Shown piece after piece: positions 1 through 19,804 of a stretch of DNA of 43,910 bases (its first letter is position 1; each line of letters starts with the position of its first letter). The DNA lies in IMG/VR virus record IMGVR_UViG_3300045988_040029, positions 1 through 43,910 of that record; one strand, given 5' to 3'. Both the position numbers and the translations under genes were made by a program. The stretch is from a virus. A model generated the notes under the pieces. The model was not told the DNA's origin, did no database searches, and saw only the letters and a program-made list of their open reading frames with translations.

Positions 1-79
1 CAAAATTGACTCCGGTGTTGTTGATATAGCCGATTTGCTTTCCGTTCTCATCGAGAATTTTTAAAAGCCCGTTTCCGTT
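1..79. repeat. Copy of the 168-bp coding repeat; bases 1-53 duplicate the window end
   Basis: Bases 1-53 equal 43858-43910 exactly, and 1-79 equal 43690-43768. Confidence 0.95.
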
Positions 80-3077: not shown

Positions 3078-6000
3078 TTATGCAAGTTCGAATGGGTTGC
3101 GTCCATTGACGTTCTGCCTGAATTTTGCTTCATCAATAATCTCGTCAAATATAGTCCTACGATTGATTTGTGCAGTAAATCGGTAGTTGCCTCCCTGTCC
3201 GGACCCAGATTCTTCTCTAACAATCTGCCTGATCAGGTCCTCTGGTGCTTCCAAGTTGCGTCCATTCTTCTGATCGCCAAGCACAGCCAGGAATTCTGAT
3301 TTGGGCGGAATTACAGCGCCTTTTGCAAGATACGGAATTGTTTTGATTTTCGGAAATTCTGCTTCGAATCCAATTTTTTTGCTTCCGAATGGTGTAGGCA
3401 CCTCCCATGGTCCGAAAGTAAAAGCCTTTTCCAGTCCACCAAGCGCATTATTCATCGTACCTATGCCGTTATTAACAAGGCTAATAGCTGCATTAATAGG
3501 TGCTTTGACATAATCAGCCAGCTTTTCAAATATATCTTTTACTCCGTCCCTGGCTTCCGTAAATCTGTCCGTAATACCTTCTTTAATTGTTTTTGCTGCT
3601 TCTGGAATTGTTTCTTTTAAATTATCCCACACATCCGATATGGTTTTGAAAATACCGTCTTCAAATATGTTTGATGCTCCCTCTTTCAAGCCATCCCAAA
3701 AACCAGAAACGGTACTTGTAATATTTTTCCATGCATCACTTGCGTATTTCTTTATCCCATCCCAGACACCAGATATTGTGGTTTTGATACCATTGAATAT
3801 TGTGGATGCGGTATTTTTTAAGCCATTCCAGATGCCGGATACCACTGTTTTGATTCCACTCCATGCAGTCACTGTTATCTGCTTTATACCGTTCCATAGA
3901 ATTTCGAATATTTTTTTTATCGTCTCTACAAACGATTCTATACCATTATACAGGCCTTGCATCAGCATCTTTCCGATCTCAGCCATAACAGTGGACTGTG
4001 AATGGATGCCAAAAAGCTCTTTTACTTTATTCACAATCGGATCAACAACATGTTCCTTCAGCCATGCTCCAATAGTCTTCATTGCGCCGATAACACCAGC
4101 TGCGACCCCACCAATCAATTCAAGTCCAATGATTCCAAGCTGTCCAGCCAGCTGTATCCAATTGATGTTCAGAATAAATTCTACAAGCTTACTTCCAAGA
4201 GATTCCCAATCTACGCCGCCAAGTGATATGATTATCGTATCAAGAAAACCAACTGCAAGATCACTGAATCCTTTTCCGATTGTAGCAAAATCAAGGCTAT
4301 ACAGAAGGTTGTTAATTCCTGTATAAATATTTTCTCCTAATGCTTTCCAATCAAATGTCTGAGAAAAATTTATGGCAATCTGGAATGCACCGGTAATAGC
4401 AGTTCCAAATGCTGTGCCAATGGTGCCAAGATCAATCGACTGAACCACTCCATTCAGACCATTACCAAGAGCTGTTCCGCACGCTTTCCAATTCAGATTT
4501 CGCACAAATCCGTAAGCTATATTAGGGATAATCATAAACTTATTCCCGATCAGCCTTCCTAGTGCGTTAAAATCTACTTCTTTAACTATTCCATTGAAGC
4601 CGTTAGCAAATCCTTTTCCGAGATTTTTCCAGTTAATTCCGGTAATTAACTGATTAAGCGTATATACAATCGTATTTATACCAGTTCCTATCGTGCGCCC
4701 CATTAGATCCCAGTCGATATGATCCACTAAGCTATTAAATGTCTTAGTAAAAGCAGTGGTAAACTTAGTGATCCTTGGTCCTACTTTATTCCAGCTGATT
4801 GCATCGTAGATCTTCTGCATGCCAGCATTAATACCAGAAGCCACATATGCGCCAAGACCTTCCCAGTCTTCCGACTTAATCAACTGTCTGATCTTATCTG
4901 CTACCCCTTTGATCGAGCTGGCTATTGGCACTTCTTGGAACATGTCGGATGGAGATGGACCTGCGTACTTCCCACTGCTTGGCGTCGATGTATCCTTGTT
5001 GCTCTCGTATCGTTCGATTTCGTCAAGTGGACTCAGATAATTCTTAGCTGCTTTTGTTGCTTTTTTGGTGTTCTTAGAGCTTTTATCCAGGCTGGCTGCA
5101 TAATCTTCCTGAACAGCCACAGCCTTAGTGAACGTGTTCTTTCCTGTCAATGCCGCAACAAACATGCCTACACGCGTCACGCACTCAGATATCAGATTTA
5201 TGAATCTAACCAGATACGGCGCAACAGTTGTAACAATCGGTGCAAACGCAGTAGCGAAGCTGTTCTTCAGCTGTGTCAGTGCGCTCATTACAGAAGATAT
5301 CGCACTATTCGTCTCACCAGAATACTGCACCAGATTTTTAAATCCATCTACCAGTGCGGATCTCATCTTATTAAACAGAGTGTAAAGGCTTCTAATACCA
5401 AACAGGTATTTCAGCATCTTTCCGATAGATATCGTGCTCTTATTGGCTGATTTATGGATGCCAAGGATACCGGAACTAATTTTTGCCAATCCGGTAATAA
5501 TACCTCCTGTGGCAAGCTTTACAAGATTTTTAGCTAAACTTTTCAGGGAGTTTGTTGCCTTTTGATTAATCACAGATAATCTGCTAATAATTCCAGATAA
5601 CATAGAGTTTTTGCTTTTATACTCATCTACAGATGCAGAGACCTCATTGTATGACTGTTGCACTTTCGAATTCATTCCTGCCAGTTTTTCCTCTTCTGAA
5701 AGTAAAACTTCCGTTTGCTTACTGGTATCTGGCGCTTTGTATGCTCCTCCGGAAGCAAGAAGATCTTTCTGCTCACCTTTGGCATACTTGATGCTATTGG
5801 TTAACTCTTCGATCTGCAATTGTCTTCTCTGGTATGTTGTAGATCTTGTTCTACCCCCTATTTCTTCAAACAGTCTCTGTTGTTCGATGAGTCTGTTCAG
5901 TTTAGCTGTGTCAGCATCTATTTGCTTACCGATTGCCTTGAATTCTTCGGTTGGAATCTTCTGGTTTCCAAGTTCTGCAATTTTCGCTTTCAGATCCTGT

Positions 6001-6200
6001 ACTTTTTGTTCCTGCGCTGCATACTGCTGATTTACTTTTTTGAAGGATGTAACTTGCTTTTCAAGGCTTTTTTTTGCATTTGTTCCTATCCCATCAATAT
6101 TAGAAGCCAGTCTTTTTACAGCTGCTTCTAATTCTTTTGAGCCGGCTTTTAATCCACTCAGATCTATCGCAGTATCAATCGTAACTTTCCCATCTGCCAT
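3078..6200 (-). CDS. Tail tape measure protein
   Basis: 1040 aa. It has a coiled-coil N terminus, a hydrophobic central segment, many W/F-x-x-L/I-G repeats (DWESLG, NWKNLGKGF, FDWKALGENI), and an 11-aa periodic WNGIK/WSGIK/WDGIK block. It follows the chaperone genes. Confidence 0.9.
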   Translation of the reverse strand: MADGKVTIDTAIDLSGLKAGSKELEAAVKRLASNIDGIGTNAKKSLEKQVTSFKKVNQQYAAQEQKVQDLKAKIAELGNQKIPTEEFKAIGKQIDADTAKLNRLIEQQRLFEEIGGRTRSTTYQRRQLQIEELTNSIKYAKGEQKDLLASGGAYKAPDTSKQTEVLLSEEEKLAGMNSKVQQSYNEVSASVDEYKSKNSMLSGIISRLSVINQKATNSLKSLAKNLVKLATGGIITGLAKISSGILGIHKSANKSTISIGKMLKYLFGIRSLYTLFNKMRSALVDGFKNLVQYSGETNSAISSVMSALTQLKNSFATAFAPIVTTVAPYLVRFINLISECVTRVGMFVAALTGKNTFTKAVAVQEDYAASLDKSSKNTKKATKAAKNYLSPLDEIERYESNKDTSTPSSGKYAGPSPSDMFQEVPIASSIKGVADKIRQLIKSEDWEGLGAYVASGINAGMQKIYDAISWNKVGPRITKFTTAFTKTFNSLVDHIDWDLMGRTIGTGINTIVYTLNQLITGINWKNLGKGFANGFNGIVKEVDFNALGRLIGNKFMIIPNIAYGFVRNLNWKACGTALGNGLNGVVQSIDLGTIGTAFGTAITGAFQIAINFSQTFDWKALGENIYTGINNLLYSLDFATIGKGFSDLAVGFLDTIIISLGGVDWESLGSKLVEFILNINWIQLAGQLGIIGLELIGGVAAGVIGAMKTIGAWLKEHVVDPIVNKVKELFGIHSQSTVMAEIGKMLMQGLYNGIESFVETIKKIFEILWNGIKQITVTAWSGIKTVVSGIWNGLKNTASTIFNGIKTTISGVWDGIKKYASDAWKNITSTVSGFWDGLKEGASNIFEDGIFKTISDVWDNLKETIPEAAKTIKEGITDRFTEARDGVKDIFEKLADYVKAPINAAISLVNNGIGTMNNALGGLEKAFTFGPWEVPTPFGSKKIGFEAEFPKIKTIPYLAKGAVIPPKSEFLAVLGDQKNGRNLEAPEDLIRQIVREESGSGQGGNYRFTAQINRRTIFDEIIDEAKFRQNVNGRNPFELA

Positions 6201-6201
6201 G

Positions 6202-6801
6202 TCATAGTTCTCCGTTCAAAATCTTATTCAGTCTCTCTTGTTCTTCCAGTTCTTCCTGACTGTATCGTTTTTCCAGTTCTACAAGATCATGATTCTCACG
6301 CACAAATTCTTTTTCCCAGGTATCCAGTTTTTTTCCTTTTGCTTTTTTCCCACGCACAGAAACAATCTGTGAAAAAAGGCAATCGCCAATTTCCATATAG
6401 GCTCCCATAAACGTCCACCAGTGCATGTATTCCAATGCACGGACTTCTTTTCCTACTACCCGGTTGATTGCAGGAATAATAACCCGTCCGTCCTGTTCCC
6501 AGTCCATTAATCTTGGAAGCGGTTTGTTCACGTTTTCCTTCATTCCCATATCTATAAATTCTATTGCTTTTTCACATGCTTCCTTGTAATCATCTCGAGG
6601 TATTAATTCGTAATCGACGTATAAGATAGTGGTCATAACGGACATCCTTACCGCCTGCTGTTCCCACTCATCAGCATCGGGTAAAAAAAGATCCGGGTCG
6701 TTCATGGCCGTAAGCACGTCCAGAACAGCCCGGAAGTCCGACCGTATTCTGTATTCAGTTTCGTGGATATTTATCGTTGTGGGAAGATCCCAGGCGTTCA
6801 T
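6202..6801 (-). CDS. Tail assembly protein, bacteriophage Gp15-like
   Basis: 199 aa, immediately upstream of the tape measure. The sequence style (MNAWDLPTTINIHETEYRIRSDFRAVLDVL...) matches my recollection of the Phage_Gp15 family. There is an ATGA overlap with the upstream ORF. Confidence 0.55.
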   Translation of the reverse strand: MNAWDLPTTINIHETEYRIRSDFRAVLDVLTAMNDPDLFLPDADEWEQQAVRMSVMTTILYVDYELIPRDDYKEACEKAIEFIDMGMKENVNKPLPRLMDWEQDGRVIIPAINRVVGKEVRALEYMHWWTFMGAYMEIGDCLFSQIVSVRGKKAKGKKLDTWEKEFVRENHDLVELEKRYSQEELEEQERLNKILNGEL

Positions 6802-7223
6802 TTCTTCTGGTACTTCGCCGTATATTTGCTCATGCGGCTCTGTACCTTTTTCAGTCTTGCGCCGGTTTCCGCTTCAATCAGTCCACCGATTTTTTCAATA
6901 ATCTCTTCGATATACAGCTTTCCACTTGAAAGTGGCGTGAATGGACTCATGACGCTGTAAATCGGCTCAGAAATATTTGCGTTGAACATTTTATCGAGCT
7001 GCTCAGCGAGTTCATTCTCAATCCGTGCCAGCTCTTCTGATGTGTTTTCAGCCGTCTGAAGAGTTGACGTGTCCAACTTATTCAAATATGTAACAACCTC
7101 ATCATATCTGTGAATGATCGCAATATCTGATGCATGGAAAGAGATGGTGAACAATGGTTTTCCACTGGCATCCAAAAATTCATATTCTTCCGCTTCGACA
7201 GCGGTTTTAATTTGTTTCGCCAT
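6798..7223 (-). CDS. Tail assembly chaperone (position-based)
   Basis: A 141-aa acidic ORF between the major tail gene and the Gp15-like gene. Confidence 0.5.
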   Translation of the reverse strand: MAKQIKTAVEAEEYEFLDASGKPLFTISFHASDIAIIHRYDEVVTYLNKLDTSTLQTAENTSEELARIENELAEQLDKMFNANISEPIYSVMSPFTPLSSGKLYIEEIIEKIGGLIEAETGARLKKVQSRMSKYTAKYQKK

Positions 7224-7248: not shown

Positions 7249-7749
7249 TTAAGCATCCGGTGTAAAAGCTCCGGTACTAATGTTGTATTTCCCCTTAATT
7301 CTTTCTCCTGTGTAATTAACAGTAAATGGGATCTGATAACCGGATGTATCACCGCCGTAGGAAGTCGGCACGACATAGCATTCCTGCTTGTAAGCTTCAT
7401 ACGCTCCCTCTGTTGCATCTTTCCAGAGATGGACTTCTACTGCATTGGCTTTTAAATTGTCGTCCTGTAAGCGTTCATCAATGATCTTCTGAAGTTTTTC
7501 AAAAAGCACAGAATCCGTCTCTGCGTAATATGGATCCACTTCAGAAGATACTTCATATCCATTGTGCTTAAATGTAGATTCCCCAAGGATGTTCTTAGAT
7601 GTCTCAGTATCTGGGTTGAGTTCAACGTTGTACTCTTCCAGATCTTTACCAAGTCTTTCATATTCTGGGGACAGTCCACCGCAGAGTGAGCCCGCATCAA
7701 TGTAATGTCCCATATATTTACGGGCGATTTTTCCTGTTACTCCTGCCAT
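7249..7749 (-). CDS. Major tail protein
   Basis: The track ORF starts at 7830, but the ATG at 7749 has the SD AGAAAGGA 7 nt upstream (MAGVTGKIARKYMGHYID...). It is 166 aa, and its size and position are typical of siphovirus tube proteins. Confidence 0.65.
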   Translation of the reverse strand: MAGVTGKIARKYMGHYIDAGSLCGGLSPEYERLGKDLEEYNVELNPDTETSKNILGESTFKHNGYEVSSEVDPYYAETDSVLFEKLQKIIDERLQDDNLKANAVEVHLWKDATEGAYEAYKQECYVVPTSYGGDTSGYQIPFTVNYTGERIKGKYNISTGAFTPDA

Positions 7750-7796
7750 AAATAAATCCTTTCTGCCTATAACTTTTAAAAGGCTATGTAGGTTAG

Positions 7797-7821
7797 CGAC
7801 TGCCTTCCGTATTGGCAGTCG
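7797..7821 (-). promoter_or_regulatory. 8-bp GC-rich stem-loop in the leader of the major tail gene
   Basis: CGACTGCC-9 nt-GGCAGTCG. No T tract follows on the coding strand, so it is not a classical terminator. Confidence 0.4.
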
Positions 7822-7856
7822 GTTGTTCATTGAGTTTTTTGAGTGTTAATTGTGTG

Positions 7857-8360
7857 CTACCACTTTTCCCACTCGTATTTGTATTTTACTGAGATTGGCA
7901 AAAGCCAGTCCTGCACACCATTTTCCTGTGGCTGTGTGCCATAAGAATTATCACGAGTGATGCGTTCAATTGTTCGTCCACGGGAAAGTTCCGGAAAAGC
8001 GGATAAGCGTGTCTCGGTGCCATCTACTGTGACTGGTTCTCGGCATATCCATTTACCGAGATTGTCAAGGAACTTCTGAACAGAGAGCTTCTGACGTTCC
8101 TTTTCGGATGCTGTTCGGTAAACAACAATAAACGGATACTGGCATACCTGGTGCATCGTTCCACAGACATCTTCTTTTTCCGAAAAGATTAATGCCCCGA
8201 TGTCTGCATAGAACGAAACGCCACTGTTGGTTCCCAGTTCCTCATATTTGATTGTTTCGCCGTCGTACAATCCCGGATACTGATTTAGTAAGGCTTTCAT
8301 AGCCTCTGTCAGAATCTCGTATCCATCCGCATCCTTGCCGATAGGCTTATTATCCACCAT
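7857..8360 (-). CDS. Tail completion / tail terminator-like protein (position-based)
   Basis: 167 aa from the ATG at 8360 (SD AAGGAG 5 nt upstream; the track start at 8366 is GTG). It is the last gene before the major tail protein. Confidence 0.45.
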   Translation of the reverse strand: MVDNKPIGKDADGYEILTEAMKALLNQYPGLYDGETIKYEELGTNSGVSFYADIGALIFSEKEDVCGTMHQVCQYPFIVVYRTASEKERQKLSVQKFLDNLGKWICREPVTVDGTETRLSAFPELSRGRTIERITRDNSYGTQPQENGVQDWLLPISVKYKYEWEKW

Positions 8361-8369
8361 AATCACTCC

Positions 8370-8831
8370 TTACTTTGCCAAAATCTCAAAATGTGGTATC
8401 AGACCGCATGGTCCTCCGACGCTTGTAATTTTAAACACGTTATCAAATCTTTGATTCATGTATTGATAGAATCCGCCACGGTAATCTTTGTCATTCACCA
8501 TATCTTTATCCCACACACCTTCCCAGAAAAAGTCTGCCCCAGGTGTAAATGTAATAGTTTCTGGCAAAAGGTCATTTGTTTGTCCTCTCCACATGATCGG
8601 TGGAACATAAAGCAAAAGCTTTGAGTCCGCAGCTATCTTTGCGCCTTTTCCGGCTCTGTAATAGCTCACATGGAGTTCGGAATTATCGGAAGAATCTATG
8701 CCATATCTTCTGATGATCGCCCCTCTATCGGTGTTCAAATCGACATTGGATAGCACATGAGGATACCAGTACGCATCTCCTGTCGTGGCTGATTCGTAAT
8801 AATTAAAAATCGTCACCGTTTTTTCGTACAT
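8370..8831 (-). CDS. Head closure / head-tail joining protein (position-based)
   Basis: 153 aa with the SD AAGGAGAGGG. It lies between the accessory insertion and the tail completion gene. Confidence 0.45.
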   Translation of the reverse strand: MYEKTVTIFNYYESATTGDAYWYPHVLSNVDLNTDRGAIIRRYGIDSSDNSELHVSYYRAGKGAKIAADSKLLLYVPPIMWRGQTNDLLPETITFTPGADFFWEGVWDKDMVNDKDYRGGFYQYMNQRFDNVFKITSVGGPCGLIPHFEILAK

Positions 8832-8847
8832 GATACCCTCTCCTTAA

Positions 8848-9183
8848 TCATTTATTTTTCAGCTTATCCACGTCAACCTTGGACGTTCGTTTCCATAATT
8901 CCGTAATCTTTTCCCACCCGAACATCGAAATAAACGCCACAATAAATCCTGCCATGATAGCGGCTAAAATCATATACCACAAGATTGTCATGTGGATATA
9001 CTGCATATACGCCACAAAAGCGGCTACAGTAATTCCAATGGACAGTACAAGTACCAGTGCATCTGTCGGAATCTTAGACAAGAATCCAACGTTTTTAATC
9101 ACCTGTGTAATCACAGACACGCAAAACGCCAAAACACTGATTACTGCCAGAATCAGAGTTACATTTGTAAATAATGCTTCCAT
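8848..9183 (-). CDS. Holin (three TM helices, Hol118 / phi-LC3-like)
   Basis: 111 aa with three hydrophobic helices and a charged tail (WEKITELWKRTSKVDVDKLKNK). The motif VITQVIKNVGFLSKIPTDALVLVLSIG resembles Listeria A118 holin [25 protein letters not shown], which I am recalling from memory. Confidence 0.6.
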   Translation of the reverse strand: MEALFTNVTLILAVISVLAFCVSVITQVIKNVGFLSKIPTDALVLVLSIGITVAAFVAYMQYIHMTILWYMILAAIMAGFIVAFISMFGWEKITELWKRTSKVDVDKLKNK

Positions 9184-9189
9184 CTTCTT

Positions 9190-9504
9190 TTATCCCTCCG
9201 TATAGTCTTCAATAATGGTCTCGATGCCATATTCAATGGCACAGGTGTTCTCAATCTTGCACCCTCTGGCTTCGTCCCATCCTTTAGCGAAAAACGCCAC
9301 ATCAGCTTCTGCCAGAAGTTTAAGGGATTCGCCCAGATACCAGAGTGACTTTGCGTCAACTGGTGCTGACTGGAAGAAAGAATCAATTACTTCTACAGGT
9401 TCACCAACCTGTTTCTCTGCACTTTTGATTGCCTTTTCTCTTACTGCAAGAATTTCCTCATCTTTCTTGCCCATCATAGGCTGAGAAATAAATAACTTTT
9501 TCAT
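9190..9504 (-). CDS. DUF4406-like protein (nucleoside 2-deoxyribosyltransferase-like fold)
   Basis: The ATG at 9504 has the SD GGGAGGTGG. The sequence is MKKLFISQPMMGKKDEE...ADVAFFAKGWDEARGCKIENTCAIEYGI, and the family motif I recall is GWE.SRGa..E...A. Confidence 0.55.
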   Translation of the reverse strand: MKKLFISQPMMGKKDEEILAVREKAIKSAEKQVGEPVEVIDSFFQSAPVDAKSLWYLGESLKLLAEADVAFFAKGWDEARGCKIENTCAIEYGIETIIEDYTEG

Positions 9505-9506
9505 TA

Positions 9507-9704
9507 TTAAACCACCTCCCAATCATGTGATGCAATATTAGAAAACGTATACGCCACATTATTGGTCTCTCTGATATCCAGCACTTTACCGTCCTTACAA
9601 TGCATTTTGATCGTATTGTCTTCCCATGCCCAATATCCGCTCCAAGATGGGAGTTTAATTTTCTTTCCATTTAAAAGTTGAAACCATGCTTCTCTAAAAT
9701 TCAT
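9507..9704 (-). CDS. DUF2829-like small protein (Tad2-like anti-Thoeris candidate)
   Basis: 65 aa: MNFREAWFQLLNGKKIKLPSWSGYWAWEDNTIKMHCKDGKVLDIRETNNVAYTFSNIASHDWEVV. It carries the N-terminal M.F.EA..L..GKKI....W.G motif and the C-terminal DWEVV motif of DUF2829. Confidence 0.55.
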   Translation of the reverse strand: MNFREAWFQLLNGKKIKLPSWSGYWAWEDNTIKMHCKDGKVLDIRETNNVAYTFSNIASHDWEVV

Positions 9705-9709
9705 ACCTC

Positions 9710-10210
9710 TTACACCCCTGCATATAAAATTGGTATTCCATCATCTGTCCTTACTCCCATCAGAAGTGGTAACGCTGTCTTTAAGAGTAAGTTGTTCGTT
9801 TTCTGTACATCTCCGGCGGTGGCGTATACCGCACTCCATTCCTTTGCACTTGCCCCAATCTGCTGAGGCGTTGCGTAAGAGATGGATTCGCTGCCGGATG
9901 ATACTGACGTCACAATGCCTGTTGATTTGCCATTTGCCCCAACAGTAACCATCTCATTACTGTTCATGGCAGCATTTGTGGCGTTCCTTTCTGCAAGTTC
10001 CAAATCATACATTTTTTCTGCTACTGCGCACACAGCTTTTTTGAGCCCGTCCAAAGAATACTCATCCGTTGGTAATCCATTTCTTAGATTTCTATATGTT
10101 ATCGTGTCGATGAAATCACTGGCTCTCTGTGCCAGCCGGAGAAAGTCACCACCTGGCACGACATTGCCATAATACGAGGTTGTATAAAAATCATAGTCGG
10201 CATATGCCAT
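9710..10210 (-). CDS. Head-tail adaptor (gp6-like connector) candidate
   Basis: 166 aa, the first gene after the major capsid gene, with the SD GAGGTGA. The N terminus is MAYADYDFYTTSYYGNVVPGGDFLRLAQRASDFID. Confidence 0.55.
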   Translation of the reverse strand: MAYADYDFYTTSYYGNVVPGGDFLRLAQRASDFIDTITYRNLRNGLPTDEYSLDGLKKAVCAVAEKMYDLELAERNATNAAMNSNEMVTVGANGKSTGIVTSVSSGSESISYATPQQIGASAKEWSAVYATAGDVQKTNNLLLKTALPLLMGVRTDDGIPILYAGV

Positions 10211-10224
10211 ACCATATCACCTCG

Positions 10225-11397
10225 TTATCCTCTGGTTTTGATCCGTGCAATCGGAATAGCCTTGATTGGGAAGTATTTCTTTGTTCCAGAAGCATTATTG
10301 TTCGCAAGTTCCCAGTTTGAGCCAGTTTTGAGCTGCTCGTCCGTAGGAGAAATGATACCAGAATTTTTGAAAGAAATTCCATAAGGTGAGAAAATCTTTC
10401 TCTGTCTGGAATACAGTGTATCTTCTCCACCGTTCTTTTCAGGATCTCTGTCCATTTCGTAAGGTACTTTTGCACCGCAATTTGTGTACTCAATCGCACC
10501 TGCACCGAGGACGTAAGTTGTATAGATCATACCTGCTGGGAGCAGCTTCACATAGTCCCCTTCTGCCACATCTGGGATGTCTGTAATTACAGCTGTTTTT
10601 GCGACCTCGTATACACCGGTTCCGCCTGTAGTGACTTTTAATGCTCCCTGTTCGGTCTGGGTTGTTCTCACGTAGAGTGCTTTTGCCTCTTCTGCTGGCA
10701 TATCATCATCAACCAGAACAGTTCTTCCATTAAGCGTAGCAAGAGTCAAGTCTCTCTCAATTCCATTGGCATCCGTGTACTTCATGTACGCCAGCAGTTT
10801 CAGATTCTCCAGATCAGTTGCAATCTTAGAATGCATGATGGACAGGCTGAACTTCGCTTTATTGTCACCAAGAGCCTTCTGAATAGCGTTGTTTAAAGTG
10901 GTCTCTTTGAAACCACTTTCTGGATCTGAGGATACATCATATGTGTGGCCATTGACGAACTTCAGATTCTCTGCTCCTGTCATAGAAAAGATTCCGTCCA
11001 GAACCGCAAGAAGTGTAGCCTGATCGATGTCATCCCAATACTCAGCAACTTCCTGCGCTGCCGGCATGAAATCTTCTCCGGTAATGTCAGAGGAAAAATC
11101 TCTTTCTGTCCATCCATGAGCACGTCCCACTACAACTCTTCCGTGTGTAAATGTGTCTCTGGAATCCGTTGTAATATTGGTTGATCCATCGTAGTTGTCT
11201 GGTGTTCCACCGATTCTTGCTTTGATCGGAACCGTAATGTAATTACCACCAGTCTGATCAGGAAGCATGGCAGCATACTGAGATTTCTCTACAATAGCAC
11301 CAGATTTCAGCAGTTCATTTCTCTTGAGATTTGGGACAGTATCGACATACGCGCCAAAAACCTCTCCATTAAAATTTTTATTGTCAAATAATGGCAT
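10225..11397 (-). CDS. Major capsid protein
   Basis: 390 aa, directly after the scaffold gene, with the SD GGAAAGGA. Size and position fit an HK97-fold capsid protein. Confidence 0.8.
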   Translation of the reverse strand: MPLFDNKNFNGEVFGAYVDTVPNLKRNELLKSGAIVEKSQYAAMLPDQTGGNYITVPIKARIGGTPDNYDGSTNITTDSRDTFTHGRVVVGRAHGWTERDFSSDITGEDFMPAAQEVAEYWDDIDQATLLAVLDGIFSMTGAENLKFVNGHTYDVSSDPESGFKETTLNNAIQKALGDNKAKFSLSIMHSKIATDLENLKLLAYMKYTDANGIERDLTLATLNGRTVLVDDDMPAEEAKALYVRTTQTEQGALKVTTGGTGVYEVAKTAVITDIPDVAEGDYVKLLPAGMIYTTYVLGAGAIEYTNCGAKVPYEMDRDPEKNGGEDTLYSRQRKIFSPYGISFKNSGIISPTDEQLKTGSNWELANNNASGTKKYFPIKAIPIARIKTRG

Positions 11398-11479: not shown

Positions 11480-12127
11480 TTACATATACTGTTTGATATC
11501 CAGGTTCGGATTTTCGTTTTTCATCCTCATCAGCTCAGACATTGAATACTTCTGCCCTGCTGGTGGCTGTTTACCGCCTGTTGCGGTTGTAAAATGTGCC
11601 GCATTCTGCTGTGCCTGCCTCTGCTGTTGATCCACAAAAATACCTGGCTTCTGGTTTCCGTCCTTATCAGTAATCATCCCTTGGAAAATATCGCTGATAG
11701 ACTTTCCTTTTGCGGAATCATCATCAAGAGCCTTAACAAGAGCATCCCGGTAATGGTCCGATGTGATGTCATTCAGAAATTCGTACAGCTTATTGCCCTT
11801 TTCATCAGTAGATGAAAGAAACTCATTCACAGTCTTCTCTACTTCAATTTTTCTGGCATCTGCTGCTCTTGCCGCTTTTTCATCATTTAACTGAGTAGTG
11901 AGTGTGGAGATCTGCCCTTTCAGATCATCTACATCGACGTCCTTAAATCCGTCCAGTTTTGTCTGAACATCATCGAGAGAGGTTTTGTACTCATTCATCT
12001 TTTTAACTACTTTGTCGTACTCTCCAGCATTTTTGTAATGCTCTGAAAGTGATCTTTTAATCTCTTCTTTTTTATCTTCTGGGATCTCAATTCCAAAAGA
12101 CTTTAAGGTCTCAATTAATTTCTGCAT
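11480..12127 (-). CDS. Scaffolding protein (phage GP20-like)
   Basis: 215 aa, strongly helical and charged, with a Q-rich tail. It lies directly upstream of the capsid gene and has the SD AGGAGG. Confidence 0.75.
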   Translation of the reverse strand: MQKLIETLKSFGIEIPEDKKEEIKRSLSEHYKNAGEYDKVVKKMNEYKTSLDDVQTKLDGFKDVDVDDLKGQISTLTTQLNDEKAARAADARKIEVEKTVNEFLSSTDEKGNKLYEFLNDITSDHYRDALVKALDDDSAKGKSISDIFQGMITDKDGNQKPGIFVDQQQRQAQQNAAHFTTATGGKQPPAGQKYSMSELMRMKNENPNLDIKQYM

Positions 12128-12578: not shown

Positions 12579-13001
12579 CTACTCAGACAGCATCTTGATT
12601 CGTCGCATAATCTCTTCTTTTTCGTCTCTGAAATCAGAATCTACCATCATAGATGAGAGCATATCGTATATCTCAACCATAAGGCGGCCCAGGGATTCCA
12701 TGAGTTTATCCTTGTGTTGCTGATCTCCGTTAGTCTGATAAGCCTGTTTAGCAGCTATATATGAATCGTACAATGCATCGATATTATGATCGTATCTGCC
12801 ATTGCTGTATTTCTTGATAACATCCTCTGTGACTTCTGCGACAGTCTCAGATGTTTTCCACTCACCACACATCTGTTTCAAATTGCAGATAGTTGTGGTC
12901 AGCTTAAAAACTACATCCAGATTGTTGTTTGTGAGCTGCTTTTTGATATTCTGTTCTTCAATTTTCAGCTGCTTTTCCAGAATTTTAATCATATCTTCCA
13001 T
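12579..13001 (-). CDS. Hypothetical all-helical protein (cassette gene K)
   Basis: 140 aa with the SD AGGTGGTGA. It is coupled 11 nt after the upstream gene. I recognised no family. Confidence 0.65.
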   Translation of the reverse strand: MEDMIKILEKQLKIEEQNIKKQLTNNNLDVVFKLTTTICNLKQMCGEWKTSETVAEVTEDVIKKYSNGRYDHNIDALYDSYIAAKQAYQTNGDQQHKDKLMESLGRLMVEIYDMLSSMMVDSDFRDEKEEIMRRIKMLSE

Positions 13002-13012
13002 ATCATCACCAC

Positions 13013-13603
13013 CTATCCGAATATCTCACACATTTTAGCCTTGTACTTATTGCGGATTTCCTGTTGAGATTCTGTGATATACACCATATCATATCCGGAA
13101 GAAATCAGATCAATAATGATCCGTTCGAGCTTCTTCAATTCATTGTCCACGTCTTCCACAAGTTTCTCCACAACAATAGCATCCGCAACCGCACCCATCT
13201 CACGAAGTCGTAATGAATAGTGCTCATATAGGTTCTTAGTATCCGATTCCCACTCACGATATTGATTAAATCCATCCTCAATACCTTTCTGTTTTGTGGA
13301 CTTGCCAACGCTGATCCTATTCGCGGACTGCCAGTTTTCCGGTATCATAGAAATCTGTCCAGAATAAGTGTCAGGTATCAGTTTGCTGTGATGATTGATG
13401 TAATATTGATTAAGTTTCTTCCTTTCCAGGGATTCCGCAAAATACTGATATTCATGAAGTTGTTTATATCCTTTCATGCCAAGGAAGTCAAAATAATCCG
13501 ACATCTGGTCATGAAACATAAGAGCCGCAATCATCCGAGCGTTAATCTCTGAAAAGATCGATTCTGCACTACTTACATCTCTATTGCTCTTGAAGGCAAT
13601 CAT
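13013..13603 (-). CDS. Ferritin-like four-helix-bundle candidate (cassette gene J)
   Basis: 196 aa with the SD GAGGGGGGTGA. AALMFHDQMSDYFDFLGMKGYKQLHEYQYFAESLERKKLNQYY and the later EKLVEDVDNELKKLERII resemble ferritin helices A/B and D, but with incomplete metal ligands. Confidence 0.4.
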   Translation of the reverse strand: MIAFKSNRDVSSAESIFSEINARMIAALMFHDQMSDYFDFLGMKGYKQLHEYQYFAESLERKKLNQYYINHHSKLIPDTYSGQISMIPENWQSANRISVGKSTKQKGIEDGFNQYREWESDTKNLYEHYSLRLREMGAVADAIVVEKLVEDVDNELKKLERIIIDLISSGYDMVYITESQQEIRNKYKAKMCEIFG

Positions 13604-13617
13604 TCAGATCACCCCCC

Positions 13618-14046
13618 TCATGCTACCTTTTTGATAATCAAGTTTGCATCCTTAACCAGAACCACACCAGCGGAAATGTTTCCGGCAGAGACAGTCAGAG
13701 ATGTCCCAGCAGGTACAGGAATAAGAGTGTCAGCACTCACGTTCTGATATACATCCGCTGTAACCACTGTGTAGTCCATCTCTGTTCCGCCAATAGCTTC
13801 TCCGTTCAGTTTAAGAACCAGAGCTGTTGCTCCTGCGGCTCCAGCTGTTACATTTGCATTGAACTGAAGTTCTACTGCCATAGGCTGATTCCCCCGGTTC
13901 GTAATTGTAAACAGTCCACTACCCTCAATATGATTGAGCCATCCGTTCTGGCATCCACATCTGCGAGATTTTACCCTTGTTCCAGTAAAGATAACATTCT
14001 GATTTACACTGATCTGCTGTGCATCTTTTGCGATTACATTTAACAT
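13618..14046 (-). CDS. TNF/C1q-like beta-sandwich candidate (BclA C-terminal-domain-like; cassette gene I)
   Basis: 142 aa with the SD AAAGGAGAA. The pattern VIFTGTRV...GSGLFTITNRGN...LVLKLNGEAIGGTEMDY...IPVPAGTSLTVSAGN...VKDANLIIKKV matches my recollection of BclA-C-type domains. Confidence 0.45.
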   Translation of the reverse strand: MLNVIAKDAQQISVNQNVIFTGTRVKSRRCGCQNGWLNHIEGSGLFTITNRGNQPMAVELQFNANVTAGAAGATALVLKLNGEAIGGTEMDYTVVTADVYQNVSADTLIPVPAGTSLTVSAGNISAGVVLVKDANLIIKKVA

Positions 14047-14061
14047 GATTATATTCTCCTT

Positions 14062-14097
14062 TTCAAAAATAAGGGGTAAGCTCCACGCCTACCCCCT
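14062..14097 (-). terminator. Intrinsic terminator after cassette gene H
   Basis: On the minus strand, GGGGTA..TACCCC (extendable with one bulge) is followed by TTATTTTTG, ending just before the SD of 13618..14046. Confidence 0.55.
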
Positions 14098-14110
14098 GTT
14101 ATTTGCAAGA

Positions 14111-14320
14111 CTACTTCGTAGCAATGGATTCTTCCAACATGCTAATTATTCGGTTTTGATTCTCGATGATCTTATCCAGGTATTTTCTGTCCTGTTCCTG
14201 TAGGTGCTTCGCTATGTCTGCGTTGCTCGCCTGCGACAAGTCACTTTCGTAATTCATCACCTGCAAGAATACGCCGAACATGTTTAGCATATCCAGGTAG
14301 GACAGTTCCCGGCTGATCAA
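14111..14320 (-). CDS. Hypothetical helical protein (cassette gene H)
   Basis: 69 aa, with a 4-nt overlap with the upstream gene. Confidence 0.65.
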   Translation of the reverse strand: MISRELSYLDMLNMFGVFLQVMNYESDLSQASNADIAKHLQEQDRKYLDKIIENQNRIISMLEESIATK

Positions 14321-15006
14321 AGTACGTTCCCACCGTTACCGCAGCAACCGCCGAACCCGGTCATGTTGTAAGCAAAGTAAGGGGAACAGGTGAGATAAGC
14401 CGGTGTCGGTGTCGGTCTTAACGCATTAACGATGTTTTTGGTCTGGTCGACCTGGGAGATCTGCCAATATGCTGTCTGGAGGTCTCTGTCACGGTCCGCA
14501 ATCTTGTCGCGAAGTCCCTGGATGGTGTTCTCCTGCATGAGCTGGCGTGTTGCCTGTCCGTCTGCAAGGACAGTTTCCTTGATGTCACAGCAGCACTGCG
14601 CAAGCTGTGCCTGCATGTTCTGTGCCTGTAATGCAGCATCGTATCTACTCTGTAAGATCTCTTTCTGTGTTTCACAGCAGCACTGCTGAGACTGAGCTCC
14701 TAACTGCTGCATTCCGAGCTGTGTTGCATATCTGTTCTCAAGTACATCTCTCTGTGTCTGGCAAGCAGTATTAGATACATTCTGGTTCGTGTTGAAAATG
14801 TCACGTTTGACAAATTCATCCGAAATGAAGTTGTCCTGCACTCCAGTCTCAACACCGCCGCGGTTCCATCCGCCCATCATCATAGGGAATAAAAATGCTA
14901 TGAAAATAATCCAAATCCAGCAATTTTCTCCCCACATATCGTTATTGTCATTTCTTGTGACTGCTGCTACATCTGCAGCGCTAAGTCCCATAGTTCCATC
15001 TGTCAT
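14317..15006 (-). CDS. Membrane-anchored protein with CCC-triplet repeats and a Gly/Cys tail (cassette gene G)
   Basis: 229 aa with the SD AGGAGA. It has one TM helix (CWIWIIFIAFLFPMMMGGW). Three repeats of about 29 aa are present: ACQTQRDVLENRYA, QQCCCETQKEILQSRYD and AQCCCDIKETVLADG. The C terminus is GFGGCCGNGGNVL. Confidence 0.75.
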   Translation of the reverse strand: MTDGTMGLSAADVAAVTRNDNNDMWGENCWIWIIFIAFLFPMMMGGWNRGGVETGVQDNFISDEFVKRDIFNTNQNVSNTACQTQRDVLENRYATQLGMQQLGAQSQQCCCETQKEILQSRYDAALQAQNMQAQLAQCCCDIKETVLADGQATRQLMQENTIQGLRDKIADRDRDLQTAYWQISQVDQTKNIVNALRPTPTPAYLTCSPYFAYNMTGFGGCCGNGGNVL

Positions 15007-15108
15007 GATAGTAGTCTCCTATTCATTATTTATTTATCAAGCCGTGTGCACACCGGCTGTGATACTATTATTATTAAGGTCAACAAAACCTTTTTGCCAA
15101 TGTTGACA

Positions 15109-15372
15109 TTATGGTTTAAAAATCCCAGTAAACTGTTCCGGATCAATTCCATTCTGCCTACATCCATTCTCAAAAATCTGCTGTGGGTTCTTCCCCTTAC
15201 ACATATCCATAGCTTGTTTAATGTTTGGATTGGTCTGCGCCATCTGATTCAACATTTCCTGTGGATTACCGGATTTTTTGATCTGATTTACAACCTGCAT
15301 TGCCTGCATCATTGCGGACATTGGGTTGTTACCCCCGCCCATTCTCCCAATCATGCTCATTAATGGATTCAT
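15109..15372 (-). CDS. Met/Asn/Gln-rich small protein with N/D-P-x-x repeats (cassette gene F)
   Basis: 87 aa, with an ATGA overlap with the upstream gene and the SD GGAGG. The repeats are NNPMSAMM, GNPQEMLNQM, TNPNIKQAM, KNPQQIF and IDPEQF. Confidence 0.65.
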   Translation of the reverse strand: MNPLMSMIGRMGGGNNPMSAMMQAMQVVNQIKKSGNPQEMLNQMAQTNPNIKQAMDMCKGKNPQQIFENGCRQNGIDPEQFTGIFKP

Positions 15373-15809
15373 TCTGATACCTCCTCATCTGGCAGTTCTC
15401 CTAAACGCTTCAATAAAGCATCAAATTCTTTTCGTGTAACGTAGTCAGTATTAACACTGTTATTTTGATTCTCAGCCATTCTATGAGCTTCTGGCTGTAT
15501 TTCCATAAACTGGAATGCCTTAAATGTTGCGCTTCCCATACCATCGACCGATTTTACGTAGAATATTGGATTATTATTATCCATCATCCAAATCGTGTGT
15601 CCCGGCTGTACAATCTGGTTCCTCGCTCCATCGATACCAGCCACCTGTATCCAGTTGACATTTGATGTGGGAGCTTGTGCCTGTTGAGGCTGTCCAGAGT
15701 ACATTCCCATCTGCTGATTTCTCTGTTGTTCAAGCTGATTGATTCGGTTCTGCAGCATTGCCTGTTCATTCGCAAACTGCTGTGGATCTATCATATTGTA
15801 AGGGTACAT
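15369..15809 (-). CDS. Gln-rich N terminus plus globular domain protein (cassette gene E)
   Basis: The ATG at 15809 has the SD AGGAGG 6 nt upstream (MYPYNMIDPQQF...); the track start at 15851 is less likely. 146 aa. Confidence 0.65.
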   Translation of the reverse strand: MYPYNMIDPQQFANEQAMLQNRINQLEQQRNQQMGMYSGQPQQAQAPTSNVNWIQVAGIDGARNQIVQPGHTIWMMDNNNPIFYVKSVDGMGSATFKAFQFMEIQPEAHRMAENQNNSVNTDYVTRKEFDALLKRLGELPDEEVSE

Positions 15810-15849
15810 AAGATACCTCCTATGCTTCTTTCTAGTTATATTTTTGCAC

Positions 15850-15885
15850 AAAAAAAGAACCTCAGACAGTTCATCTAAGGTTCTT
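15850..15885 (-). terminator. Intrinsic terminator inside the cassette (after gene D)
   Basis: The minus-strand RNA reads AAGAACCUUAGA-UGAACUG-UCUGAGGUUCUU followed by UUUUUGUGC. This is a 10-12 bp stem with one G.U pair. Confidence 0.7.
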
Positions 15886-15903
15886 AATAGTGTCAGAAAA
15901 GTA

Positions 15904-16035
15904 TCACTGCATCAGCAATTTAACTGCCGTTGCAATCCATCCGACTGCTGTCACTATGCAAGCCGTTCTCCACCGCTTGGTCTGTACTTTTGCTTCTTTG
16001 ATTACGTCAGAAGCGAGATTAAAGTTATTCATCAT
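15904..16035 (-). CDS. Small C-terminally anchored membrane protein (cassette gene D)
   Basis: About 43 aa from the ATG at 16035 (SD GGAGGT): MMNNFNLASDVIKEAKVQTKRWRTACIVTAVGWIATAVKLLMQ. Confidence 0.45.
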   Translation of the reverse strand: MMNNFNLASDVIKEAKVQTKRWRTACIVTAVGWIATAVKLLMQ

Positions 16036-16100
16036 TATACCTCCGTGATCTATGCTATATTCAGTATATAGCCTGTTCACAGAGAATAGCAAGCATCCTT

Positions 16101-16316: not shown

Positions 16317-16321
16317 CCATG

Positions 16322-19791: not shown

Positions 19792-19804
19792 TTTTGATAC
19801 ACAA

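What the first reader, a model, noticed from the sequence alone, without database searches (positions are those of the whole stretch)
9190..9704. Tad2-like (DUF2829) gene coupled to a DUF4406 (nucleoside deoxyribosyltransferase-like) gene inside the head-tail connector block
What the sequence shows: the 65-aa product of 9507..9704 carries the N-terminal M.F.EA..L..GKKI....W.G motif, a central DGKVL, and the C-terminal DWEVV motif that I associate with DUF2829.

Established knowledge: the Thoeris anti-defence protein Tad2, a sponge for gcADPR-type signals, is a DUF2829 protein.

Three nt after its stop begins a 104-aa DUF4406-like ORF (GWDEARGCKIE motif). DUF4406 has a nucleoside 2-deoxyribosyltransferase-like Rossmannoid fold, a fold class that acts on N-glycosidic bonds of nucleotides.

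Inference: the two genes form a cassette aimed at nucleotide-derived immune signals (a sponge plus a possible signal- or precursor-cleaving enzyme). Their location between the adaptor (9710..10210) and head-closure (8370..8831) genes is not where accessory genes are expected.
Basis: partly seen in the sequence, partly recalled or inferred. Interest (0 to 1): 0.7.

Follow-up and report, generated by a model that had tools for sequence, protein, structure and literature searches.

The report
Mini-Tad2 plus DUF4406 anti-immunity gene pair
Two small accessory genes of a gut Clostridia phage, a stripped-down relative of the Tad2 immune-signal sponge and an uncharacterised enzyme-like DUF4406 protein, sit in a fast-changing gene slot, and repeated fusions of the two domains in other phages make DUF4406 a testable candidate for a new phage counter-defence protein.

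Summary
Gene A (9507..9704, minus strand, 65 aa) has a confident Tad2 fold. Gene B (9190..9504, 104 aa) has a nucleoside-2-deoxyribosyltransferase (NDT)-like DUF4406 fold with a near-invariant Glu85. Both score just below Pfam's cut-offs but are supported by PHROG, family-level profile and structure searches, and both are under strong purifying selection.

DUF2829 and DUF4406 domains occur as single polypeptides in both orders, in at least 7 clusters at 50% identity. They are neighbours in about 10% of A-like loci, in differing genomic contexts. DUF4406 also sits next to two other validated sponge families: Acb2/Tad1 (in this same slot in a close relative) and Sequestin.

The pair is not obligatory. 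The closest relatives carry A alone, B alone or neither. A lacks part of the SPO1 Tad2 ligand pocket. No biochemistry exists for DUF4406.

The "unexpected location" claim is wrong. The adaptor-to-head-closure gap is a recurrent accessory hot spot in this phage group.

Verdict: a divergent Tad2-type sponge plus a promising, uncharacterised partner. Interest is moderate to high.

The parts
9507..9704 (-). Gene A: 65-aa minimal DUF2829/Tad2-fold protein ('mini-Tad2'), a candidate immune-signal sponge
   Evidence: ORF. PF11195 scores 18.5 bits, below the cut-off; phrog_1048 E=1.7e-9. The family profile hits Tad2 entries in the PDB. AlphaFold2 pLDDT is 95, and the Foldseek top 16 are all Tad2, TMq 0.70-0.75. 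dN/dS is 0.09-0.17.
9190..9504 (-). Gene B: 104-aa DUF4406 protein with a minimal nucleoside-2-deoxyribosyltransferase-like fold and the conserved motifs SQPM.GK and KGW..RGC.IE (Glu85)
   Evidence: PF14359 scores 20.5 bits, just below the cut-off; phrog_355 E=2.1e-15. AlphaFold2 pLDDT is 91. Foldseek matches NDT 2a0k, 7m5h, PTD, DNPH1 and BcmB. BFVD top hits are phage DUF4406/NDT proteins. E85 is conserved in 368 of 377 sequences and C82 in 377 of 378. dN/dS is 0.03-0.05.
8848..9183 (-). Gene C: 111-aa membrane protein with three predicted transmembrane segments and a charged C-terminal tail; probable holin-like protein sharing the accessory slot
   Evidence: phrog_18218 E=1e-38, with a weak match to holin/antiholin phrog_126. 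It occupies the position that a Hol44-family holin (PF16079, E=3.9e-23) holds in relatives. The A-B-C order is repeated in L172 and L176.
9710..10210 (-). Head-tail adaptor gene, upstream boundary of the variable slot
   Evidence: phrog_541 head-tail adaptor E=1.8e-18. The same gene flanks the slot in L006, L009 and L089-L103.
8370..8831 (-). Connector-region gene (head-closure by position only), downstream boundary of the variable slot
   Evidence: phrog_3366, unknown function, E=1.7e-22. Its orthologue closes the slot in L006, L009 and L090.

Best explanation
The segment between the adaptor gene and the next connector gene is a hypervariable accessory-gene slot of a temperate siphovirus-like phage of gut Clostridia. 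In this window it holds three tightly packed genes read with the late operon.

Gene A is a stand-alone, minimal member of the DUF2829/Tad2 fold. I infer that it is a homo-oligomeric sponge for a nucleotide-derived immune signal. Its ligand may differ from the gcADPR bound by SPO1 Tad2, because the pocket is remodelled. Family-specific invariant residues are Y24, W25, W27, D43-I44-R45, T53 and N56.

Gene B is a DUF4406 protein with a minimal nucleoside-2-deoxyribosyltransferase fold. It has a conserved candidate nucleophile (Glu85) inside the motif R80-G81-C82-x-I84-E85. I infer that B works in the same counter-defence pathway as the sponges. Most likely it attacks a glycosidic (ribosyl) bond of an ADP-ribose-type signal or its precursor. 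A close second possibility is that it is a further signal-binding protein.

Gene C is a holin-like membrane protein that shares the slot.

Shown here: the genes are real, their folds, the conserved residues, the hot-spot behaviour of the slot, the domain fusions, and the adjacency to known sponge families.

Inferred: ligand binding by A, any activity of B, and any effect on Thoeris, CBASS or other signalling defences.
For: Fold of A:
- pLDDT is 95. The top 16 PDB matches are all Tad2 (SPO1, ModTad2), probability 1.0, TMq 0.70-0.75. The next unrelated hit has TM 0.43.
- The family profile hits PDB Tad2 8v3e at E=0.0019.
- hhalign gives 94.9% probability over residues 1-23, and W21 aligns with the ligand-contacting W25 of SPO1 Tad2.
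- The mini domain occurs in tandem with a canonical DUF2829 domain in 56 of 80 IMG/VR loci and 61 of 80 genome loci.

Fold of B:
- It matches NDT, PTD, DNPH1 and BcmB.
- E85 is E in 368 of 377 sequences, C82 is conserved in 377 of 378, and R80 and W76 are near-invariant. This also holds in the fused forms.

Link between A and B:
- Mini-Tad2+DUF4406 fusions exist in P0163, P0164, P0165, P0167, P0168, P0172, P0174, P0175 and P0176, diverging down to 51% identity.
- A canonical Tad2 then DUF4406 fusion exists in P0230 (51 and 24.9 bits).
- A DUF4406 then Tad2 fusion exists in L138 (25.8 and 72.3 bits).
- 7 of the best 150 representatives at 50% identity carry both domains.
- B lies within 3 kb of A-like genes in 7 of 80 IMG/VR loci and 9 of 80 species-dereplicated genome loci. 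It is usually directly adjacent, occurs in both orders, and sits in lysis, head and replication contexts.
- The same A-B-C order is found in L172 and L176.

Anti-signalling context:
- In L089 (B 94% and C 98% identical to the window) the gene in A's place is an Acb2/Tad1 hairpin-domain protein (PF24729, E=3.5e-24).
- Sequestin-family (PF21825) genes abut B in L142 and L163, and abut A in L018 and L019.
- 15 of 80 B loci neighbour a validated sponge family.
- Precedent: fusion to Tad2 was used to discover the Sequestin sponges (bioRxiv 10.1101/2025.07.12.664507). Hot spots of adjacent anti-signalling genes have been described (bioRxiv 10.64898/2026.06.04.730250).
Against: - Both single-sequence Pfam scores are below the curated cut-offs.
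- A lacks about 20 residues of canonical Tad2. The missing parts include the beta2-beta3 loop with helix alpha2, which forms the dimer interface, and the HAWVP segment with H71 and W73. N26 is S (a variable position) and D79 is N. Oligomer state and ligand are therefore unknown.
- Most A-like loci lack B, and B's family is far larger than A's (6391 against 42 clusters at 90% identity).
- The closest relatives have A without B (L009-L013, L169-L178) or B without A (L089-L103). The juxtaposition here could be a recent shuffle in a hot spot.
- Distant DUF4406/NDT-like phage proteins sit in replication modules or are fused to nucleotide-metabolism domains.
- The genes have no promoter of their own above chance and are read with late structural genes, which is late for a counter-defence function.
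- No paper in the held library links DUF4406 to defence, so nothing experimental supports it.
- Loci in the co-occurrence counts are not phylogenetically independent.
Confidence: 0.5

Rival explanations
1. A and B are independent accessory (moron) genes that happen to share a hot spot. A may be a sponge. B is a nucleotide-metabolism enzyme unrelated to immune signalling: a DNPH1/Rcl-like dNMP N-hydrolase or a deoxyribosyltransferase that salvages or sanitises nucleotide pools.
For: - PHROG and BFVD neighbours are annotated as nucleoside 2-deoxyribosyltransferase.
- Fold matches include DNPH1, NDT and CMP N-glycosidase.
- Some homologues lie in replication modules: FP_oengus next to a DNA polymerase and a single strand annealing protein, and L156 and L149 next to a DNA polymerase.
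- B occurs without A in the large majority of loci.
- The slot shuffles freely.
Against: - Single-chain fusions with DUF2829 recur in both orders and in several diverged clusters.
- B is directly adjacent to three different sponge families.
- Most close B homologues sit in lysis or morphogenesis moron positions rather than with nucleotide-metabolism genes.
Confidence: 0.25
2. B is not an enzyme but a second sponge. It would be a small homo-oligomer with an NDT/SLOG/TIR-like Rossmannoid fold that sequesters a different signal from A, like the Tad2-Acb4 and Tad2-Sequestin sponge pairs.
For: - All published fusion partners of Tad2 shown to act are sponges.
- B is short (about 100 aa), like known sponges.
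- From general knowledge, NDT-family proteins form ligand sites at subunit interfaces.
- Weaker fold matches include TIR and SLOG-type domains.
Against: - The near-invariant Glu sits at the position and spacing (G-x-x-x-E) of the NDT/DNPH1 nucleophile. Invariant Cys82, Arg80 and the SQPM loop look more like an active site.
- No oligomer or pocket model could be made here.
Confidence: 0.15
3. A acts as an anti-CRISPR (AcrIIA7-like DUF2829) or has another non-sponge role, and the DUF2829 fold here is only a scaffold.
For: DUF2829 proteins in the PDB are also deposited as 'Inhibitor of Type II CRISPR-Cas system' and AcrIIA7 (8kbi, 9kzr). A lacks part of the gcADPR pocket.
Against: The Tad2 paper notes that Cas9 binding was never shown for the DUF2829 'Acr', and that several DUF2829 proteins sequester gcADPR. 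A's neighbours in other phages are signal sponges.
Confidence: 0.07

Closest known systems
Tad2 (Thoeris anti-defence 2; DUF2829, PF11195), e.g. SPO1 Gp34.65, ModTad2, HgmTad2/AcrIIA7
   Same: A has the same overall fold: an N-terminal helix, an antiparallel sheet, a C-terminal helix and a final strand. It shares the N-terminal F.EA...G..[IV]K...W.G motif and the C-terminal DW motif. The Trp equivalent to W25 is conserved. It is a small phage accessory protein. It is found in tandem or fused with canonical DUF2829 domains.
   Different: A is 65 aa against about 89 aa. It lacks the beta2-beta3 loop with helix alpha2 and the H71-W73 segment. N26 is S, and D79 is N. It has its own invariant residues (Y24, W25, W27, D43-I44-R45). 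It scores below the Pfam cut-off. No ligand or oligomer data exist.
Nucleoside 2-deoxyribosyltransferase / DNPH1 (Rcl) / BcmB N-glycosidase superfamily (Pfam clan containing PF05014 and DUF4406 PF14359)
   Same: B has a Rossmann-like alpha/beta fold. A conserved Glu follows strand beta4 with the G-x-x-x-E spacing of the catalytic nucleophile. A conserved first-strand loop is present.
   Different: B is only 104 aa against 125-165 aa. No sequence-level match to any solved structure was found. It has an invariant Cys82 and an SQPM loop, neither of which to my knowledge is a feature of NDT or DNPH1 (not checked here). Substrate and activity are unknown. Its genomic company is immune-signal sponges rather than nucleotide-metabolism genes.
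Sponge-sponge fusions and anti-signalling hot spots (Tad2-Acb4 and Tad2-Sequestin fusions, Tal et al. 2025 preprint; N4-like phage hot spot, Fedorova et al. 2026 preprint)
   Same: Small accessory genes cluster at one site and swap between related phages. A Tad2-family domain is fused to a partner family. Acb2/Tad1- and Sequestin-family genes alternate at or beside the same positions.
   Different: The partner here (DUF4406) has an enzyme-like fold and has not been tested. The hot spot lies inside the head-tail connector block of gut Clostridia phages and also contains the holin.

Membership tests
DUF2829 / Tad2-like (PF11195) | Match to the Pfam model above the gathering score | tested here: not met
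   The window protein scores 18.5 bits against a cut-off of 25, although the match is full length. At family level, 18 of 35 relatives match at E<0.01, best 1.9e-9.
DUF2829 / Tad2-like (PF11195) | Tad2 fold (alpha1, antiparallel beta-sheet, alpha3, beta5) | tested here: met
   The AlphaFold2 model has pLDDT 95. The Foldseek top 16 PDB hits are all Tad2, probability 1.0, TMq 0.70-0.75. Helix alpha2 and the beta2-beta3 loop are absent.
DUF2829 / Tad2-like (PF11195) | Conserved N-terminal (F.EA..LK.G..V.R.GW.G) and C-terminal (..DW) motifs | tested here: met
   hhalign against canonical domains gives 94.9% probability over residues 1-23. The profile hits PDB Tad2 at both termini.
DUF2829 / Tad2-like (PF11195) | Ligand-contact residues of SPO1 Tad2 (W25, N26, I63, T65, D67, H71, W73, S76, T78, D79) | tested here: not met
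   By global profile alignment, W25 is kept (W21), T65 is kept (T47), S76 is T53 and T78 is S55. N26 is a variable S22, I63 is R45, D67 is N49 and D79 is N56. H71 and W73 fall in a deleted segment. This is a sequence-based alignment, with no 3D superposition.
DUF2829 / Tad2-like (PF11195) | Homotetramer with ligand pockets between protomers; sequesters gcADPR or related signals; inhibits Thoeris | not testable with these tools
   No multimer prediction or biochemistry is available.
DUF4406 (PF14359) | Match to the Pfam model above the gathering score | tested here: inconclusive
   The window protein scores 20.5 bits against a cut-off of 22, covering 1-88/91 of the model. Homologues 83-86% identical carry the precomputed PF14359 call (P0060, P0080). 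Sources name P0149 and P0150 as DUF4406 proteins. phrog_355 E=2.1e-15.
Nucleoside 2-deoxyribosyltransferase superfamily | NDT-type Rossmann-like fold | tested here: met
   Foldseek: 2a0k E=3.6e-4, 7m5h TMq 0.70, and 1s2d, DNPH1 and BcmB at probability 0.99 or more. BFVD phage NDT/DUF4406 proteins reach TMq 0.93.
Nucleoside 2-deoxyribosyltransferase superfamily | Catalytic Glu nucleophile after strand beta4 | tested here: inconclusive
   E85 is conserved in 368 of 377 sequences, with the G81-x-x-x-E85 spacing expected from NDT and DNPH1. The correspondence rests on motif spacing recalled from the literature, not on a residue-level structural alignment.
Nucleoside 2-deoxyribosyltransferase superfamily | N-glycosidic bond transfer or hydrolysis activity | not testable with these tools
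   This needs an enzyme assay.
Phage immune-signal sponge partners (criterion of Tal et al. 2025: fused to a known sponge family) | Recurrent single-chain fusion with Tad2 (PF11195) or another sponge family | tested here: met
   P0230 and the L138 ORF pass both Pfam cut-offs. The fusions occur in both orders. Mini-Tad2 fusions P0163-P0176 exist. 7 of the best 150 representatives at 50% identity carry both domains.
Phage immune-signal sponge partners (criterion of Tal et al. 2025: fused to a known sponge family) | Inhibits a signalling defence system when co-expressed | not testable with these tools
   This needs an experiment.

The most novel reading that the evidence does not exclude
DUF4406 is a previously unrecognised, very widespread family of phage counter-defence proteins. 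It would use an NDT-type glutamate to cleave, or transglycosylate, the ribosyl bond of TIR-derived ADP-ribose signals (gcADPR, His-ADPR, N7-cADPR). It would work beside or fused to sponges (Tad2, Acb2/Tad1, Sequestin), so that signals are both captured and destroyed. The 65-aa 'mini-Tad2' would be a new minimal sponge architecture with its own ligand specificity. DUF6275, the commonest shared neighbour, would be a third member of this toolkit.
Probability: 0.3. Interest if true: 0.8.

Novelty: new variant of a known kind. Interest (0 to 1): 0.62.

Why it matters
Phage sponges and signal-degrading enzymes decide whether Thoeris, CBASS and related defences work. New families have recently been found by exactly the "fused to Tad2" logic that applies here.

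DUF4406 is abundant in gut Bacillota phages and prophages. It has 6391 clusters at 90% identity, and 2770 representatives at 50% identity match the fused query. It has no known function. No paper in the held library links it to defence.

If it acts on immune signals, it would add an enzyme class (glycosidic-bond chemistry) to the counter-defence repertoire. It would also explain a common gene of human-gut phages.

The mini-Tad2 subfamily falls below Pfam's cut-off, so domain-architecture surveys miss it and its fusions.

The slot itself (adaptor, then accessory genes plus holin, then connector) is a convenient place to mine further anti-defence genes in Clostridia phages.

Tried and rejected
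- Single-sequence and profile searches of PDB sequences with B found nothing meaningful (candoxin, designed repeats). The single sequence of A also gave nothing; only its family profile reached Tad2.
- NCBIfam and PADLOC gave no hits for A, B, C or DUF6275.
- The promoter and terminator scan of 8300..10400 found nothing above shuffled expectation, so no separate transcription unit can be claimed.
- A weak tblastn hit of canonical Tad2 at window 1490-1642 (E=0.017) has no ORF behind it and was dropped as chance.
- An apparent ORF desert at 1..2689 turned out to be one long minus-strand ORF that runs off the window end, which ORF listing does not list. It is not an anomaly.
- P0044 (180 aa) looked like a possible A+B fusion. 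It is B with an unrelated Cys-rich N-terminal extension.
- N- and C-terminal extensions of 75 DUF4406 representatives were clustered to look for further fused domains. Nearly all are singletons and are probably over-called ORFs.
- P0166 (DeoC-like aldolase joined to part of the fusion) is a single short contig with a truncated Tad2 part. I treated it as a chimera or assembly join, not as evidence.
- The exact-sequence look-up of window A found no record.
- Lockin, a recently described Thoeris sponge, was checked as a possible identity for B and rejected. It is a mostly-beta hexamer.
Full report
**1. What is in the sequence.**
On the minus strand the late operon reads as follows:
- scaffold (11480..12127)
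- major capsid (10225..11397)
- head-tail adaptor (9710..10210; phrog_541, E=1.8e-18)
- gene A (9507..9704, 65 aa)
- gene B (9190..9504, 104 aa)
- gene C (8848..9183, 111 aa)
- a 153-aa connector-region gene (8370..8831; phrog_3366)
- tail completion (7857..8366)
- a 193-aa gene in the major-tail position (7249..7830; phrog_3099, unknown function)
- two further genes (6798..7223 and 6202..6801; unknown function; chaperone position)
- tape measure (3078..6200)

A starts 5 nt after the adaptor stop, behind a GAGG ribosome-binding site. B starts 2 nt after A's stop. C starts 6 nt after B's stop. A consensus scan finds no promoter or terminator above shuffled expectation.

**2. Are A and B real genes?**
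Yes. A has 42 clusters of relatives at 90% identity and B has 6391. Against homologous loci, dN/dS is 0.09-0.17 for A and 0.03-0.05 for B. Both give confident AlphaFold2 models, with pLDDT 95 and 91.

**3. What A is.**
- The single sequence matches Pfam Tad2-like (PF11195) over its full length but below the cut-off (18.5 against 25 bits). It matches phrog_1048 at E=1.7e-9.
- Of 35 family members, 18 match PF11195 at E<0.01, best 1.9e-9.
- A profile of the family finds only Tad2/DUF2829 entries at the top of the PDB sequence search: 8v3e E=0.0019, then 9eib, 8wjd, 8sme and 8kbi.
- The model's 16 best PDB fold matches are all Tad2 structures (SPO1 Tad2 and Myroides Tad2, apo and with gcADPR or His-ADPR). 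Probability is 1.0 and TMq 0.70-0.75. The next unrelated hit has TM 0.43.
- In many phages the same mini domain is the first half of a 164-aa protein whose second half is a canonical DUF2829 domain. Examples are Dorea phage DO134P1 and P0251. This tandem form occurs in 56 of 80 IMG/VR loci and 61 of 80 genome loci.

A is therefore a genuine but minimal member of the fold.

It is about 20 residues shorter than SPO1 Tad2. A global profile alignment was compared with the published contact list W25, N26, I63, T65, D67, H71, W73, S76, T78, D79. W25 is kept (as W21). T65 is kept, and S76 and T78 are conservatively replaced. N26 is a variable S and D79 is N. H71 and W73 fall in a deleted segment. The beta2-beta3 loop with helix alpha2, which forms the dimer interface in SPO1 Tad2, is missing. 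The mini family has its own invariant residues: F3, G13, W25, G39, D43-I44-R45, T53 and W62. Fold membership is met. The gcADPR pocket as defined for SPO1 Tad2 is not.

**4. What B is.**
- Pfam DUF4406 scores just below the cut-off (20.5 against 22 bits). phrog_355 "nucleoside 2-deoxyribosyltransferase" scores E=2.1e-15.
- Close homologues are named DUF4406 by their sources and carry the precomputed Pfam call.
- There is no sequence-level relative among solved structures.
- The model's best fold matches are nucleoside 2-deoxyribosyltransferases (2a0k, E=3.6e-4), an uncharacterised E. faecalis protein (7m5h, TMq 0.70), purine deoxyribosyltransferase, DNPH1/Rcl and the CMP N-glycosidase BcmB. 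TIR domains appear further down.
- In the viral structure library it matches phage proteins annotated as DUF4406 or N-deoxyribosyltransferase.
- Across 385 family members the motifs S7-Q8-P9-M10-x-G12-K13 and K74-G75-W76-x-x-x-R80-G81-C82-x-I84-E85 are almost invariant. E85 is E in 368 and D in 7. C82 is conserved in 377 of 378.
- The G-x-x-x-E spacing after strand beta4 is that of the NDT/DNPH1 nucleophile. This is my reading of the motif, not a residue-level superposition.

B therefore looks like a minimised, probably active, member of the N-glycosidase/transferase superfamily. Its substrate is unknown.

**5. Is the pair a unit?**

Evidence for a link:
1. *Fusions.* MT838258 encodes one 186-aa protein made of a mini-Tad2 domain, a 12-aa linker and a DUF4406 domain. 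Full-length relatives exist down to 51% identity: P0163, P0164, P0165, P0167, P0168, P0172, P0174, P0175 and P0176. A canonical Tad2 domain is fused upstream of DUF4406 in P0230 and downstream of it in the L138 195-aa ORF. Both of these pass both Pfam cut-offs. L156 has a further divergent mini+DUF4406 fusion next to a DNA polymerase. In an exhaustive search of 1.84 billion representatives at 50% identity, 7 of the best 150 carry both domains.
2. *Adjacency.* B lies within 3 kb of an A-like gene in 7 of 80 IMG/VR loci and in 9 of 80 loci from species-dereplicated genomes. It is usually directly abutting and occurs in both orders. The contexts differ: between holin and endolysin (L072, L073), between minor head protein and scaffold (L069, L083), and after the adaptor (this window, L172, L176).

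Evidence against an obligatory unit:
- Most A-like loci lack B, and B's family is far larger than A's.
- The closest relatives of this phage show every combination in the same slot: A-Hol44 holin (L009, L169 and others), A-C (L171, L177), B-Hol44 (L092), a 57-aa Cys-rich protein followed by B-C (L090), an Acb2/Tad1-like gene followed by B-C (L089), C followed by other inserts with neither A nor B (L006), and A-B-C (window, L172, L176).

The two genes are separate modules that are repeatedly brought together and sometimes welded. They are not a fixed cassette.

**6. The company they keep.**
- In L089, B is 94% and C is 98% identical to the window. There the gene occupying A's place is a 69-aa protein matching the Acb2/Tad1 hairpin domain (PF24729, E=3.5e-24).
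- Sequestin-family genes (PF21825, 63.7 bits for L078) directly follow B in L142 and L163, and follow A in L018 and L019.
- In all, 15 of the 80 closest B loci neighbour a validated sponge family.
- The commonest shared neighbour of both A and B is DUF6275. It appears in 35 of 160 IMG/VR loci and 15 of 80 genome loci, and is fused to DUF4406 in P0260 and P0415 and to DUF2829 in P0359.
- The held literature shows that Tad2 is often fused to other sponges, and that this was used to discover Sequestin. It also shows that hot spots of adjacent anti-signalling genes exist, and that late structural proteins can be the triggers of Thoeris.
- No paper in the library mentions DUF4406 or PF14359 in a defence context.

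**7. The location.**
In this phage group the adaptor-to-connector gap is a hot spot. It always contains a small membrane protein: either a Hol44-family holin (PF16079, E=3.9e-23) or the C type. It also contains a changing set of small genes. These include DUF4417 and several proteins with a shared MGGRGGSSG N-terminus. In other Clostridia phages, A-like genes sit between the minor head protein and the scaffold. The placement is ordinary for this lineage. It does mean the genes are read with the late operon.

**8. Mechanism.**
This is a commitment with stated uncertainty.
- A: a homo-oligomeric sponge for a nucleotide-derived immune signal, using a remodelled pocket. I put this at about 0.55.
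- B: acts in the same counter-defence pathway, about 0.5 overall. That splits into about 0.3 for a Glu85-dependent glycosidic-bond enzyme acting on ADP-ribose-type signals, and about 0.2 for a further sponge.
- Rival: B is an ordinary nucleotide-metabolism enzyme that shares a hot spot by chance, about 0.25.

Nothing here tests binding, oligomerisation or activity.

**9. Distribution.**
A-like genes occur in prophages of gut and rumen Clostridia: Lachnospiraceae, Blautia, Roseburia, Faecalibacterium, Clostridium, Oscillospiraceae and Acutalibacteraceae. The nearest phage records are unannotated human-faecal contigs.

**10. Verdict.**
It is a new variant of a known kind: a divergent Tad2-type sponge in an anti-signalling hot spot. 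It comes with a well-motivated, untested candidate, DUF4406, for a new counter-defence family.

Noticed in passing
Related loci, e.g. L018:3460-3705, L077:3836-4105, L111:3308-3586; proteins P0260, P0415, P0359: DUF6275 (PF19791; E=2e-34 for L018, 7.7e-28 for L077) is the commonest neighbour of both mini-Tad2 and DUF4406 genes. It appears in 35 of 160 IMG/VR loci and 15 of 80 genome loci. It also occurs fused to DUF4406 and to DUF2829. It is absent from this window. It is a further untested anti-defence candidate.
   Followed up: partly
L089:2779-2988 (relative with B 94% and C 98% identical to the window): A 69-aa gene with the Acb2/Tad1 hairpin domain (PF24729, E=3.5e-24) sits between the adaptor and DUF4406, exactly where the window has the Tad2-like gene. 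Sponge families therefore alternate at one position.
   Followed up: yes
L006:3480-3920 and 4083-4442; L089:3661-4035; L102:3593-4087; L171:2464-2958; L010:3475-3846: Several unrelated proteins of 119-164 aa in the same slot of related phages share the N-terminus MGGRGG(S/I)(S/G)G, followed by different bodies. They are often next to a DUF4417 gene (PF14386, E=1.9e-59). A shared N-terminal tag on variable cargo inside the head/neck module could be a packaging or targeting signal. This is unexplained.
   Followed up: no
window 18666..19802, 19877..21736, 21723..22391 (minus strand): A tyrosine integrase (phrog_1, E=1e-47) lies between the portal gene (22388..23830) and the minor head protein genes. 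With it are a 619-aa tail-fibre-like protein carrying a GDSL/SGNH esterase domain (PF13472, E=1.9e-17) and a 222-aa ORF. This is an unusual place for an integrase and may mark a nested insertion or a rearrangement.
   Followed up: no
window 24125..25747 (minus strand): The 540-aa terminase ORF matches small-subunit PHROGs over residues 1-117 (phrog_51, E=1.6e-30) and large-subunit PHROGs over the rest. It is possibly a fused TerS-TerL.
   Followed up: no
window 8366..8370, compared with L006:2516-3028 and L009:3950-4441: Relatives carry a 163-170-aa gene between the 153-aa connector-region gene and the tail-completion gene. The window lacks it; the two genes abut.
   Followed up: no
window 12579..16929 (minus strand): Seven ORFs with no assignable function lie between the scaffold and the minor head protein. 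This is the position where other Clostridia phages keep their DUF2829 gene. One of them (13618..14046) has a sub-threshold BclA C-terminal domain match (25.8 bits against a cut-off of 38). It may be a second accessory region.
   Followed up: partly
window 8848..9183 (minus strand): A holin-like gene with three predicted transmembrane segments sits inside the head-tail connector block, away from any recognised endolysin in the part of the window examined. Relatives have a bona fide Hol44-family holin at the same place.
   Followed up: partly
P0178, P0179: These are chimeric proteins in which a mini-Tad2 domain and the first residues of a canonical DUF2829 domain run straight into the middle of a window-type DUF4406. 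They look like deletion products of a Tad2-Tad2-DUF4406 array, and they show that array exists with this B subtype.
   Followed up: no
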